This document shows positions 55,369-59,269 of a stretch of 64,000 nt of DNA, in pieces (position 1 is the stretch's first letter; the number at the start of each line of letters is the position of its first letter). The stretch is from the human T2T-CHM13v2.0 reference genome, Homo sapiens. Both the position numbers and the translations under genes were made by a program. The notes under the pieces are model-generated. The model had not been told where the DNA came from. It worked only from the letters and a program-made list of their open reading frames with translations, and did no database searches. The DNA is taken from contig CP086569.2 of the NCBI GenBank assembly GCA_009914755.4, positions 18,368,001-18,432,000 of the forward strand. The letters are read 5' to 3'.

Positions 55369-56420
55369 CTAGGCCACCTCCTCCTCAGCACACTCCTCAA
55401 ACTCCTCCTCCTCAGCCTTGGCATCCTGGTACTGCTAATTTTCAGACACCAGGTCATTCATGTTGCTCTCAGCCTCAGTGAACTCCATCTCATCCAAGCC
55501 CTCGCCCGTGTACCAGTGGAGGAAGACCTTGCACTTGAACATTGCTGTAATCTCTTCTGAGACATGCTTGAAGATTTCCTGGATAACAATGCTGTTGCCC
55601 ATGAAGGTGGCCAACATTTTTAGCCCCTGGGGTGGGATGTGACAGATGGCTGTTTTTACGTTGTGGGGGAGCCAGTCAGCAAAGTAGCTGCTGTTTTATT
55701 TTGAATGTTGAACATTTGTCCATCCACCTCCCTCATGGGCATGCAACCCCTGAAAATGGCAGCCACCATTAGGTAGCAGCCATGACAGGGGCAGCCATCA
55801 TATTCTTAGCATAAAACATCTGCTGAGTAAGCTCAGCCACAGTCAGGGCCTGGTAATGCTGGCTGCCCCGGCTGGTCAGTGGGGCAAAGCCAGGCATGAA
55901 GAAATGCAGCCTGGGAAATGGGACCATGTTCACAGACAGCTTCTGTAGGTCAGCATTCAGCTGACCTGGGAAGCCCAGGCACATGGTGACCCCACTCATG
56001 GTAGCAGATAACAGGTGGTTCATGTCACCATAGGTAGGTGTGGGCAGTTTTAGGGTTCTGGAATAGATGTCATATAGAGCTTCATTATCTATGCAAAAGG
56101 TCTTATCTGCATTTTCTATGAGTTTCTATGGTGGACTGACAGGGTGGCATTGTAGAGTTCCACCATGGTGTCTGACACCTTGGGCGAGGACAGGATGCTG
56201 AATGTGTTTATGATCCTGTCTGAATACTCCTCCCAGATCTTACTAACGAGAAGGGTACCCATCCCAGATGCAGTTCCCCTACCCAGGGAGTGGGTCAGCT
56301 GGAAACCCTGCAGGCATTCACAGCTCTCACACTGCTTTCAGACAATGTCCATCGCTGACTCCATCAGCTCCGCACCTTCTGTATAGTGCCCCTTGGCCTT
56401 GTTTCAAGCCCCACACTGAC
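55369..56420 (-). pseudogene. TUBB8P: TUBB8-like exon 4 (1052 nt vs canonical 1058) with TGA near its start and further stops (DIV*, VSEN*)
   Basis: Acceptor 'catacag|GTCAGTGTGGGGCTTGAAAC'. It translates '...[88 protein letters not shown]...'. ORFs 55769-56023(-) and 55435-55617(-) match TUBB residues ~247-330 and ~388-444. It ends 'AEEEVA*'. Confidence 0.85.
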
Positions 56421-56913
56421 CTGTATGACAGTACAGTCAGTCACTTGAGTGCCAGGTGTATGGTCATCAGTGGTCACCACCACAATGCAAAATGGACCAA
56501 GTGTCACATGTGAGGTGAAAGCACCATTCATCCTTCAGGTGGAGCAAATGAAACCCCGTACCGCAGAGTTACAGGACAGCAGCCTCCCCTTTTAGAAATT
56601 AAGTCAGGACTCAAAACTCAGACATGCTAAGAGACCTCGCTGTAGGTGGCTCCTACCTATTTTCAGGGAAGAGAGTAGCCACGGCCCCAGCTCAGCTCCC
56701 TGCAGGGAGTTTATAACACTAGCTCCTCACCTTGAGGAGACGCCTGGGGCTTCCTCCCGAAGCCCATTTAGGAGAGGCAGATTGAGCCATTGGGAGAATA
56801 GGAGGATGTTCAGGGGCCCTGGCTGCACAATTCCCACAGCTATGACCTTCAGGAACTACTAGATGAGCTGCTCCGGCTAAGGAGCCGCACCGCAGTCCTC
56901 ACTCGCAGCTCAC

Positions 56914-57023
56914 CAAAGATGAGGTTGTCGGCCTGAAGATGAGCCCGAAGGGCCCCGAGCGCAGAGAGTCCATGGTGACCGGCTCCAGGTCCACGAGCAC
57001 AGCGCAGGGCACGTACCAGCCAC
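56914..57023 (-). pseudogene. TUBB8P: TUBB8-like exon 3 (110 nt, 1-nt deletion; [31 protein letters not shown]...)
   Basis: Acceptor 'ctcag|GTGGCTGG' and donor 'tttg|gtgag'. The frame is lost where 'PDNFIFG' is expected. Confidence 0.8.
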
Positions 57024-57104
57024 CTGAGTGGGACAGGAGGGTATTAGCGAGGGGGAGGGCCGCCGTTCCCAGGATGGCGATCGGAGAAGGTCTGGGTTCT
57101 CACC

Positions 57105-57213
57105 GCTGGCCTCGTTGTAGTACACGTTGATGCGCTACAGCTGCAGGTTGCTCTCCCCGTGGTAGGTGCCAGCGGAGTCAATGGGATGTTCATCAGAGAT
57201 CACCCCCCAGAAC
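57105..57213 (-). pseudogene. TUBB8P: TUBB8-like exon 2 (109 nt; [36 protein letters not shown]) with in-frame TAG
   Basis: Acceptor 'tgtag|TTCTGG' and donor 'gccagcg|gtgag'. The stop replaces the conserved Glu of '[13 protein letters not shown]'. Confidence 0.85.
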
Positions 57214-57517
57214 TACAAGAGATTGGGTGGGGTCAGACAGACCAGGGCTGAGTCACGGAGGCCAGGGAGCTGGAGGCGCCCCAGCCCCTCTCCTAGCTCC
57301 TCTACCACCCCCACCCTCATCCGCAACCACATCCCTAGGCTGCCGTGTCCCTGGGGTCCACCCCTGCCGACTAGTCAGCCTCCCAGTTCCACTGCGTCCC
57401 CGGCAGGGAGCCCAGGGGCTGCAATTCAGGGGCACCGCCCAAGCCACTGCCACTGCCAACATCTTCCCTGGCCACCCAGTAGGCCGGAGCTGGGACCTCA
57501 GAGCCCCGGATGCCAAC

Positions 57518-57574
57518 CTTGGCACCGATCTTCTTCCCGCACTGCCGGGTCTGCGTGAGCGCAATCTCCCTCAT
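57518..57574 (-). pseudogene. TUBB8P: TUBB8-like exon 1 (19 codons, MREIALTQTRQCGKKIGAK)
   Basis: It is the reverse complement of 'cttggcaccgatcttcttcccgcactgccgggtctgcgtgagcgcaatctccctcat'. The 57-nt length equals canonical TUBB exon 1, and a GT donor follows immediately. Confidence 0.85.
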
Positions 57575-57649
57575 GGCCAAGGCGGGATTAGGGCGGCAGG
57601 AGAAATGCGAGAAGGAAGAGCAGATGTGCAGCGACCCAGCCCGCCCTCT

Positions 57650-57670
57650 GCCAACATTTAAATAGACCCT
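57650..57670 (-). promoter_or_regulatory. TATA-like element (TATTTAAAT) ~85 nt upstream of the tubulin ATG in moderately GC-rich context
   Basis: The plus strand 'ccaacatttaaatagaccct' is the reverse complement of 'gggtctatttaaatgttgg'. Confidence 0.5.
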
Positions 57671-59269
57671 CGCCCGCCTCCCTCAACCTCGGATTGGGCT
57701 CCCAGAATAAGCAACAGCTTTACTTCCACACAGGTGTACCCACCTGTGAGTCCCTTGGAGCTGAACGTCTGCTGGGGAGCTCAGGTGGCCTTGCTGTGGT
57801 CCTTTCCACGTTGGGGAAAGCTGGTCAGCTGGAGAACTTCCTCCCTCGTCTTTACTAAGATTAAATCCCTAGCTGACATGAAACTGAATTTTCCTCCCAT
57901 GTGGGAGGGGAAGCCTCTTATTTCGGTATTCACAGAGTGCCTTGCACCTATCCTAGACTGATGACATATTTTTGTACTTGATGAGTCTTTTCATCTATTG
58001 GGAGATCTGTGGTAGGAAAGGCCTTCCATATGTAAACACAACAAGACTTAATGGTAAGTTTTACTTTGGAGCAGTTCAAACCCTCAGTAAGTTATGGGTG
58101 TTAGAGATATTAGGCATTTGATTTAGCATGAGTCTTCTTTAGAGTAGGATTAGCCCTTTCACCTTTCCAGAGGACTGCGGTCTTTACGCAGAGTGAAAGT
58201 AATACTGGATTCCTAAAGCTGAGGATAGGTGTTGGGATACACTGAAAATGGACCATTGTCACTTTGCAGGCTTTTAGATTACTCAGACTGATAAGTTATT
58301 TCTTCTGGCAACGATCTAACCAGTGAAGGTATCAGTAAGAGTTAGCAAATATTTGAATCTCCTGCAGAAAGACATCTGAGTAAATTAGAGTTGCCAGTTC
58401 TCACCTGGATAGATTCATCAATATTGGACACGTTTAACTGGAGAAGGAGAAAATTGCTGGCCTTTGGGACATGTCAGGCGCAGAGCTCACAGGGGTGAGC
58501 CACCTGTTTTATTGTCTTGAAAAGATTTACCCCTATAAACAAATGAGATATTAACAGAAACAAAGAATCTCTTCTAGGATGAAAATAATCATAAAGTGCT
58601 GAATTATATTCCTATGATTGGTACTTGGCATTAGTAATTTATTACCATCGTTCAGCGGGCCAGAGGGGTCCTGGACTGAACTGCAATCCCTGGCCCAATT
58701 TTGTACTTCTTCAGAGTATTCTGACCCTATGTTCTGTGAATGCTAATCAGCACACCCATAGCTTAATTGGCCTTTTCAGTCCAGGGGCCTTGACTGCAGC
58801 ATCTACCAGGGCATTTCCTTTTACATGGTCCGTCTCTGTTTTGATGACCTCTGCAATTAATTATAGTCAGTTTTGGCAGCAAAACAGCATTCTAAGAAGC
58901 TAAAAATCTGAATGATGTTCTATGGAAAAGCCCTTGGGAGCCAGGGGTAGTTACCCATTCCAAATTGCAGCGTAAGAATGAAGCACTAAAAAATCATAGT
59001 TGGAATCAGTGTAAGTGTTAACGTTTAAATGCTTTACCAACTGCAGGGGCCTAGTAAGTTCAATTAACTCAGCTTTCTGAGCTGAGGTAGAGGCCAGCAA
59101 TGCTTGTGCCTTGATTCTCTTGTGCTAATAAGTATATCTAGCTCTTCTGTTTTCCCTGATGCAAAAAAGAACTTGCGTCTGTTAACCACTCTTCCTTGGG
59201 ATGGTCAAGGGGCAAGGGGCTCATCTCTTGTAAGTCTGGCCTCCTAGAATAAATTTGTTTTATAACCTG

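What the first reader, a model, noticed from the sequence alone, without database searches (positions are those of the whole stretch)
55369..57700. Intron-containing TUBB8-like beta-tubulin pseudogene with intact gene architecture
All four canonical beta-tubulin exons are present on the minus strand with the canonical exon sizes (57 / 109 / ~111 / ~1058 nt), GT-AG junctions and a TATA-like box about 85 nt upstream. The gene has retained its introns and was therefore duplicated segmentally rather than retrotransposed. It is dead: TAG in exon 2 (LQL*RIN), a 1-nt deletion in exon 3, a TGA plus a 3-nt deletion early in exon 4, and later stops (DIV*, SEN*). Residues such as 'IDSAGTYHG' and 'AELMES' point to the TUBB8 lineage, whose pseudogene copies (TUBB8P) are a hallmark of human subtelomeric and pericentromeric duplicons. 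This is the strongest locus-defining signal in the window. The intact promoter and splice signals leave open expression as a non-coding or NMD-targeted transcript.
Basis: partly seen in the sequence, partly recalled or inferred. Interest (0 to 1): 0.6.

Follow-up and report, generated by a model that had tools for sequence, protein, structure and literature searches.

The report
Old intron-containing TUBB8-family tubulin pseudogene
This is a dead, intron-bearing copy of the primate beta-tubulin gene TUBB8, carried inside a large, old segmental duplication; it belongs to a well-known pseudogene family.

Summary
On the minus strand at 57574..55369 lies a four-exon beta-tubulin gene. Its exons are 57/109/110/1052 nt, its three introns are GT-AG, and CCAAT and TATTTAAA boxes sit upstream. 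All 17 TUBB8-diagnostic residues carry the TUBB8 state. Exons, introns and flanks align collinearly at about 86% identity with TUBB8-family loci of chimpanzee, gorilla and langur, and at about 79% with a capuchin locus. The homology covers at least window 34246..63997, so this is a segmental duplicate, not a retrocopy. It is dead: four in-frame stops, four frameshifts (-1, +5, -7, -1) and one 3-nt deletion. Substitutions private to this copy are spread evenly over codon positions (28/16/19) and occur at the flank rate, so it evolves neutrally. It branches outside the three catarrhine copies compared and inside the platyrrhine outgroup, which puts it at very roughly 30 Myr old. The architecture is not fully intact: the family's conserved AATAAA poly(A) signal is ACTAAA here. 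The 5' CpG island kept 59% of ancestral CpGs against 16% in exon 4, which suggests long germline hypomethylation. Transcription cannot be tested here, and the species and named locus could not be determined. The finding is ordinary and of a known kind.

The parts
57693..57697 (-). CCAAT box of the ancestral TUBB8-family promoter
   Evidence: Sequence checked. Retained in four of the five aligned loci; the gorilla copy has CGAAT.
57657..57664 (-). TATA-like box TATTTAAA, 83-90 nt upstream of the ATG
   Evidence: It is homologous to TATTTAAG in capuchin. The chimpanzee, gorilla and langur copies have degraded versions (TATTGAAG, TATTTCAG).
57518..57574 (-). Exon 1 coding part (57 nt, ATG 57574..57572), followed by donor GTTGGC
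57213..57517 (-). Intron 1 (305 nt, GT..AG)
   Evidence: 84-88% identical to intron 1 of the chimpanzee, gorilla and langur loci
57104..57212 (-). Exon 2 (109 nt) with premature TAG at codon 45 (57137..57135). The open frame from the ATG is only 44 codons.
57024..57103 (-). Intron 2 (80 nt, GT..AG)
56914..57023 (-). Exon 3 (110 nt; 1-nt deletion at codon 87, after 56930)
56421..56913 (-). Intron 3 (493 nt, GT..AG)
   Evidence: 85-86% identical to intron 3 of the paralogues
55369..56420 (-). Exon 4 coding part (1052 nt). Lesions: TGA at codon 98 (56406..56404), -3 nt at codon 100, TGA at codon 121 (56340..56338), +5 nt at codon 191 (after 56130), -7 nt at codon 302 (after 55792), -1 nt at codon 336 (after 55698), TAG at codon 423 (55437..55435). 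Ancestral stop TAG at 55371..55369.
   Evidence: CpG observed/expected is 0.12, against 0.29-0.53 in the other copies.
55214..55219 (-). Degraded poly(A) signal: ACTAAA where all four compared loci have AATAAA, about 145 nt after the stop
   Evidence: None of the four hexamers searched (AATAAA, ATTAAA, AGTAAA, TATAAA) occurs in the ~670 nt after the stop.
56821..57740 (.). Residual 5' CpG island. Two stretches, 57461..57740 and 56821..57260, just meet GC>=0.5 and observed/expected>=0.6.
   Evidence: Apart from one 220-bp stretch at 20121..20340, these are the only such stretches in the 64-kb window. 35 of 59 ancestral CpGs are kept here, against 5 of 32 in exon 4 (Fisher p=6e-5).
34246..63997 (-). 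Minimum extent of the segmental-duplication block that carries the pseudogene. It is limited by the window end on one side and by the ends of the fetched loci on the other.
   Evidence: Collinear blastn at about 83-89% identity to chimpanzee L001, gorilla L002 and langur L003 (one short 440-bp piece at 91.6% to L001), and about 79% to capuchin L004 over 52001..61434.

Best explanation
This is a non-processed (duplicated) pseudogene of the primate TUBB8 (class VIII beta-tubulin) lineage. A segmental duplication of at least 30 kb copied the whole gene, with promoter, four exons, three introns and 3' end, to a new site. This happened after the platyrrhine-catarrhine split and before the compared chimpanzee, gorilla and langur copies diverged from each other, very roughly 30 Myr ago.

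Since then the copy has drifted neutrally. It picked up four nonsense codons, four frameshifts, one in-frame deletion and a mutated poly(A) signal, so it cannot make a tubulin. The first stop is at codon 45.

Its promoter boxes and all six splice sites are still intact. Its 5' CpG island has decayed much more slowly than the gene body. I infer from this that the promoter stayed unmethylated in the germline for a long time, and that it may still drive a non-coding transcript that would be a target for nonsense-mediated decay. That last step is inferred, not shown.
For: Identity as beta-tubulin: Pfam Tubulin and Tubulin_C; PDB beta-tubulins at E about 1e-231.

TUBB8 lineage: the top-identity hits are all primate tubulin beta-8, and 17 of 17 diagnostic residues carry the TUBB8 state.

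Duplicated, not retrotransposed:
- Exon boundaries equal those of the annotated chimpanzee paralogue.
- Introns 1 and 3 align at 84-88% identity, intron 2 at 75-81%.
- Collinear homology spans window 34246..63997.

Dead: the stops and frameshifts are listed.

Neutral evolution:
- Private substitutions by codon position are 28/16/19 (p=0.16). Capuchin shows 12/7/53 and langur 6/7/26.
- The private rate is 4.8% in exons against 5.4% in non-coding sequence (p=0.35).

Age and placement:
- The NJ tree on 7196 non-CpG columns places the window copy as sister to the (chimpanzee, gorilla, langur) copies, with capuchin as outgroup. Bootstrap support is 194/200.
- K2P distance is 0.106 to those copies, against 0.150 between catarrhine and capuchin copies. 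That gives about 30 Myr if the platyrrhine split was 43 Myr ago.

Promoter and CpG island.

Family precedent for transcription: TUBB8P7, TUBB8P8, TUBB8P12 and TUBB7P reads are reported in human oocytes and embryos (PMC5797088; PMC10330962).
Against: - The species and chromosomal locus of the window could not be established, so the named gene (for example a particular TUBB8P or TUBBP) is unknown.
- The dating assumes a clock and no gene conversion. The clock fails: the window lineage has 1.3-1.5 times more substitutions than the other copies (Tajima test p from 8e-5 down to 2e-8).
- The other copies may have been homogenised among themselves, which would make the window copy look older than it is.
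- Only four other loci were compared. None is the canonical functional ape TUBB8, and a closer paralogue may exist.
- The CpG-island retention pattern is also seen, more weakly, in the other copies. It could partly reflect biased gene conversion rather than hypomethylation.
- The mutated poly(A) signal argues against efficient production of a stable transcript.
Confidence: 0.93

Rival explanations
1. Processed retrocopy of a beta-tubulin mRNA in which later repeat insertions mimic introns.
For: None found.
Against: The three interruptions sit exactly at the annotated intron positions of the chimpanzee paralogue. They keep GT..AG ends and align with the paralogues' introns (introns 1 and 3 at 84-88% identity, intron 2 at 75-81%). 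Homology continues for kilobases upstream of the promoter and downstream of the poly(A) site. No Alu maps inside the gene.
Confidence: 0.01
2. A functional or recently inactivated TUBB8 paralogue whose apparent lesions are assembly errors or polymorphisms.
For: The ATG, the promoter boxes and all splice sites are intact.
Against: There are eight independent disabling lesions. Private substitutions are spread evenly over codon positions and occur at the flank rate. 27 of 32 ancestral CpGs in exon 4 are lost. The poly(A) signal is mutated.
Confidence: 0.01
3. A young subtelomeric TUBB8P copy of the kind exchanged among human chromosome ends (as on 10p and 18p), not an old duplicate.
For: TUBB8-family duplicons are described at human chromosome ends 10p and 18p (bioRxiv 10.64898/2026.07.10.737660). 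The window contains a 3.2-kb degenerate (TTAGGG)n tract.
Against: The copy is 13-14% diverged from every copy compared, while those copies differ from each other by 9-10%. Its Alus are old (S and J types). The telomere-like tract is itself highly degenerate. Only four comparison loci were available, so a closer copy cannot be excluded.
Confidence: 0.05
4. A transcribed pseudogene with an RNA-level role, for example an oocyte-expressed non-coding or NMD-targeted transcript that influences TUBB8.
For: CCAAT and TATA boxes and the splice sites are retained. The 5' CpG island is retained far better than the gene body or flanks. Other family pseudogenes are reported in oocyte and embryo RNA-seq.
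Against: No segment of the locus is more conserved than the neutral flanks. The poly(A) signal is weakened to ACTAAA. Published pseudogene signals may be reads from TUBB8 that map to several copies. There are no expression data for this copy.
Confidence: 0.1

Closest known systems
TUBB8 (tubulin beta class VIII), the primate oocyte spindle beta-tubulin
   Same: It has the same four-exon, three-intron layout, with homologous promoter, introns and 3' end. All 17 of 17 TUBB8-diagnostic residues match, and frame-corrected protein identity is 82-84% to ape and Old World monkey TUBB8(-like) proteins (80% to the capuchin one).
   Different: The reading frame is destroyed by four stops and four frameshifts, evolution is neutral, and the poly(A) signal is mutated.
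Human TUBB8P / TUBB7P (TUBB4Q) unprocessed pseudogene family, the 'novel beta-tubulin subfamily' of van Geel et al. 2000
   Same: Both are intron-containing TUBB8-like copies spread by segmental duplication into subtelomeric-type sequence. The literature lists TUBB4Q as a pseudogene of about 2.3 kb on the minus strand at 4q35.2 (PMC2794184; PMC12376486).
   Different: This is not the 4q35 copy. FRG1 lies about 19 kb from TUBB4Q there, but the window has no FRG1 exon (the query was FRG1 recalled from memory). Which named member this copy is, if any, could not be determined. It is more decayed than the annotated intact-ORF ape copies L001 and L002.
Chimpanzee, gorilla and langur 'tubulin beta-8 chain-like' loci (L001, L002, L003)
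   Same: They are collinear with the window over gene and flanks at about 86% identity.
   Different: Those copies are closer to each other (89-91%) and form a clade that excludes the window copy. L001 and L002 still have open reading frames.

Membership tests
Beta-tubulin | Tubulin GTPase domain followed by the Tubulin C-terminal domain; full-length similarity to solved beta-tubulins | tested here: met
   PF00091 E=8.8e-41 and PF03953 E=4.7e-32. PDB beta-tubulins match residues 1-442 at E about 1e-231. This was tested on the frame-corrected translation.
TUBB8 (class VIII) lineage | Residues that distinguish TUBB8 from the other vertebrate beta-tubulin isotypes | tested here: met
   17 of 17 diagnostic positions carry the TUBB8 state and none carries another isotype's state. 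The highest identities are to primate tubulin beta-8.
TUBB8 (class VIII) lineage | Non-coding homology (introns, promoter, flanks) to TUBB8-family loci | tested here: met
Non-processed (duplicated) pseudogene | Introns retained at the parental positions | tested here: met
   The boundaries equal those of the annotated chimpanzee gene. All introns are GT..AG.
Non-processed (duplicated) pseudogene | Homology extends beyond the transcription unit | tested here: met
   The block spans at least 34246..63997.
Non-processed (duplicated) pseudogene | Disabling mutations and loss of coding constraint | tested here: met
   Four stops, four frameshifts and one 3-nt deletion. Private substitutions by codon position are 28/16/19, and the exon rate about equals the flank rate.
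Processed retropseudogene | Intronless, poly(A) tail, homology ends at the mRNA boundaries | tested here: not met
   The introns are present and the flanks are homologous.
Named human TUBB8P1-12 / TUBB7P / TUBBP locus | Near-identity to the annotated locus in GRCh38 or T2T-CHM13 | not testable with these tools
   No human genome or pseudogene annotation is available here. The 4q35 TUBB7P context (FRG1 nearby) is absent. No protein closer than 81% (full length) or 78% (C-terminal part) is on record.
Subtelomeric or pericentromeric duplicon | Chromosomal position near a telomere or centromere; internal degenerate (TTAGGG)n tracts at block boundaries | tested here: inconclusive
   A 3.2-kb degenerate TTAGGG-like tract lies at 4940..8110. 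The paralogues L001 and L003 lie within 0.4 Mb and 0.03 Mb of the ends of their sequence records. The position of the window itself is unknown.
Transcribed pseudogene | RNA evidence from this copy; functional promoter and poly(A) site | not testable with these tools
   The promoter boxes and a residual CpG island are present, but the poly(A) signal is the rare variant ACTAAA. There are no expression data.

The most novel reading that the evidence does not exclude
Despite roughly 30 Myr as a dead gene, the promoter CpG island of this copy has been kept unmethylated in the germline. The locus would then still be transcribed in oocytes as a spliced, NMD-sensitive or non-coding RNA that affects TUBB8 expression or the local chromatin of the duplicon.
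Probability: 0.08. Interest if true: 0.35.

Novelty: already known. Interest (0 to 1): 0.1.

Why it matters
It matters little beyond annotation. The copy is a useful marker: it identifies the surrounding 30 kb or more as an old TUBB8-family duplicon, and it gives a neutral-rate yardstick for that block. A practical point concerns clinical sequencing and oocyte RNA-seq of TUBB8, an oocyte-maturation-arrest gene. Such work must discount cross-mapping to copies like this one. At about 86% identity this copy is easy to tell apart. The contrast between the preserved 5' CpG island and the CpG-depleted gene body is a tidy example of how promoter hypomethylation can outlive the coding function.

Tried and rejected
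- **Is the window the 4q35 FSHD region (TUBB4Q/TUBB7P, about 19 kb from FRG1)?** tblastn with FRG1, recalled from memory, found no exon. Rejected.
- **Rfam scan of the whole window at gathering thresholds:** no hit.
- **Search for an annotated orthologue of this exact copy:** a second protein search with the most diverged C-terminal 86 aa gave nothing above 78% identity.
- **Exact-protein look-ups** for P0093, P0073, P0127, P0138 and P0046, and for a 207-aa window ORF (an attempt to learn the species from sample metadata), were all 'not on record'.
- **Second tubulin copy or tandem fragments in the window:** tblastn found only the one gene.
- **Locally elevated conservation that might flag a functional element:** identity is flat at about 82-92% across the block.
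- **Processed-retrocopy and sequencing-error explanations:** rejected (see rival explanations).
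Full report
**What is there.** I read window 55000..58200 on the minus strand and mapped landmarks. This gives a complete beta-tubulin gene layout.
- CCAAT at 57697..57693 and TATTTAAA at 57664..57657.
- ATG at 57574.
- Exon 1 at 57574..57518 (57 nt).
- Intron 1 (305 nt).
- Exon 2 at 57212..57104 (109 nt).
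- Intron 2 (80 nt).
- Exon 3 at 57023..56914 (110 nt).
- Intron 3 (493 nt).
- Exon 4 at 56420..55369 (1052 nt), ending in TAG.

All introns are GT..AG. The frame-corrected translation hits Pfam Tubulin (E=8.8e-41) and Tubulin_C (E=4.7e-32). It matches solved beta-tubulins end to end at E about 1e-231. tblastn finds no second tubulin copy in the window.

**Which tubulin.** In a search of about 5.8 billion proteins, the highest identities (80-81%) were all to primate 'tubulin beta-8 chain(-like)' proteins. Other isotypes scored 74-77%. I then aligned six TUBB8 or TUBB8-like proteins (apes, Old and New World monkeys) with eight other isotypes (TUBB, TUBB2A, TUBB3, TUBB4A and others). Seventeen positions separate TUBB8 from all the rest, and the pseudogene carries the TUBB8 state at all 17. 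The lineage assignment is sound.

**Duplicated, not retrotransposed.** I fetched four genomic loci that encode TUBB8-like proteins:
- L001, chimpanzee T2T, 0.4 Mb from the end of its chromosome record.
- L002, gorilla T2T, at 113 Mb of a 244-Mb chromosome.
- L003, langur, 30 kb from the end of its scaffold.
- L004, capuchin.

blastn shows collinear homology of the window to L001, L002 and L003 at about 83-89% identity, from window 63997 (the window end) down to 35634 or 34246 (the ends of the fetched loci). One 440-bp piece reaches 91.6% to L001. Homology to capuchin is about 79% over 52001..61434. In a four-way alignment, introns 1 and 3 are 84-88% identical to the paralogues' introns and the 80-nt intron 2 is 75-81%, about the same as or below the exons and flanks. 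The chimpanzee columns aligned to my four exons translate exactly to the NCBI-annotated product P0044, and the donor hexamers are identical. So the introns sit at the family's own positions, and the processed-retrocopy alternative is refuted. The duplicated block covers at least 30 kb of the window.

**How dead it is.** Measured against the chimpanzee reading frame, the copy has these indels:
- -1 nt at codon 87 (exon 3).
- -3 nt at codon 100.
- +5 nt at codon 191.
- -7 nt at codon 302.
- -1 nt at codon 336.

After frame correction it has stops at codons 45, 98, 121 and 423. From the ATG, the spliced frame is open for only 44 codons.

**Neutral evolution.** Substitutions private to the window copy fall 28/16/19 on codon positions 1/2/3 (p=0.16 for equality). 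The capuchin gene shows 12/7/53 and the langur copy 6/7/26, the third-position excess expected under purifying selection. The private substitution rate is 4.8% in exons and 5.4% in introns plus flanks (Fisher p=0.35). No 300-nt slice of the block stands out as conserved. The copy has drifted neutrally for essentially all of its separate history.

**Age and placement.** On 7196 ungapped non-CpG columns, K2P distances are:
- About 0.106 between the window copy and each of the three catarrhine copies.
- 0.067-0.080 among those three copies.
- 0.147-0.171 to capuchin.

The NJ tree rooted on capuchin puts the window copy as sister to the (chimpanzee, gorilla, langur) copies, with bootstrap support of 194/200. 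Scaling to a platyrrhine split of 43 Myr, which is established knowledge, gives about 30 Myr. This figure is rough. A Tajima relative-rate test shows the window lineage has 1.3-1.5 times more substitutions than the others (p from 8e-5 down to 2e-8). Gene conversion among the other copies cannot be excluded. Even so, this is an old, diverged family member, not a recently exchanged subtelomeric copy. The Alus in the window are old S and J types, plus one Y-like element (the consensus sequences were recalled from memory). This fits a catarrhine primate.

**Regulatory signals.**
- The CCAAT box is retained in four of the five loci (gorilla has CGAAT). TATTTAAA in the window matches the capuchin TATTTAAG better than the chimpanzee, gorilla and langur versions do.
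- All six splice sites are intact.
- The poly(A) signal is not intact. All four other loci have AATAAA 141-149 nt after the stop, whereas the window has ACTAAA (55219..55214). None of the four hexamers I searched (AATAAA, ATTAAA, AGTAAA, TATAAA) occurs in the ~670 nt after the stop. From my own knowledge, ACUAAA is a rare, weak variant.
- Apart from one 220-bp stretch at 20121..20340, the only CpG-island-like stretches in the 64-kb window lie at the 5' end of the pseudogene (57461..57740 and 56821..57260), both just at threshold.
- Of the CpGs inferred to be ancestral, 35 of 59 survive in the 5' region. Only 5 of 32 survive in exon 4, and 2 of 12 and 1 of 17 in the flanks (Fisher p=6e-5). Most losses are to TG or CA.

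I infer that the 5' end escaped germline methylation for much of its history while the gene body was methylated. That is consistent with a promoter that stayed open after the coding function died, but it does not prove it.

**Literature.**
- TUBB8-family duplicons are described at human chromosome ends 10p and 18p (bioRxiv 10.64898/2026.07.10.737660).
- TUBB4Q at 4q35.2 is listed as a pseudogene about 19 kb from FRG1 (PMC2794184). The subfamily was defined by van Geel et al. 2000, cited in PMC12376486.
- TUBB8P7, TUBB8P8, TUBB8P12 and TUBB7P signals are reported in human oocytes and embryos (PMC5797088, PMC10330962, PMC8450412). Cross-mapping from TUBB8 is a caveat, and that caveat is my own.

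**What could not be done.** There is no human or primate genome to align against, so the species, chromosome band and gene name remain unknown. The 4q35 context is excluded because the window has no FRG1. No annotated protein from an orthologous locus exists in the protein collection. Expression and methylation cannot be tested here.

**Verdict.** The object is an ordinary member of a known pseudogene family, so interest is low.

Noticed in passing
window 4940..8110 (+ strand): About 3.2 kb of highly degenerate (TTAGGG)n-like repeats. The tract holds 59 of the window's 74 TTAGGG hexamers and no CCCTAA; G is 29-33% and C 5-8%. It looks like an old interstitial telomere or duplicon boundary, oriented 5'-TTAGGG-3' on the + strand, about 47 kb from the pseudogene.
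   Followed up: partly
window 16145..20918 (minus strand): ERV-like open reading frames: an env transmembrane-like 138-aa ORF and 207-aa and 150-aa ORFs. A 220-bp CpG-island-like stretch lies at 20121..20340. This is probably an endogenous retrovirus remnant.
   Followed up: no
window 33790..34188 (+), 26873..27301, 2501..2615: An L1 reverse-transcriptase-like ORF fragment, a (TG/TA)n-rich low-complexity tract at 27076..27287, and a (TCTC)n tract.
   Followed up: no
L001 10001..12163 (chimpanzee) and L002 10001..12194 (gorilla): These copies are annotated as protein-coding 'tubulin beta-8 chain(-like)' and have intact ORFs. Yet their private substitutions show no third-codon-position excess (10/5/10 and 18/15/14). 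L002 also has GG instead of GT at the intron-2 donor. They may be unconstrained copies that have not yet been disabled.
   Followed up: partly
L003 ~11841..12138 (langur): The langur 'tubulin beta-8 chain-like' gene has an insertion of about 300-315 bp inside exon 4 relative to all other copies, and its annotated product reads through past the usual stop. It is probably a pseudogene despite its annotation.
   Followed up: no
window 52001..60346 versus L001-L004: The window lineage has accumulated 1.3-1.5 times more substitutions than the chimpanzee, gorilla and langur copies since their common ancestor (Tajima test p from 8e-5 down to 2e-8). The cause could be a higher local mutation rate or homogenisation among the other copies. 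It is unresolved.
   Followed up: partly
window 37541..47098: This stretch of about 9.5 kb is absent from the chimpanzee (L001) and gorilla (L002) loci. The langur locus L003 continues into 46429..47004, so it is more likely a deletion in the ape copies than an insertion in the window. It holds a Y-like Alu at 37897..38176.
   Followed up: no
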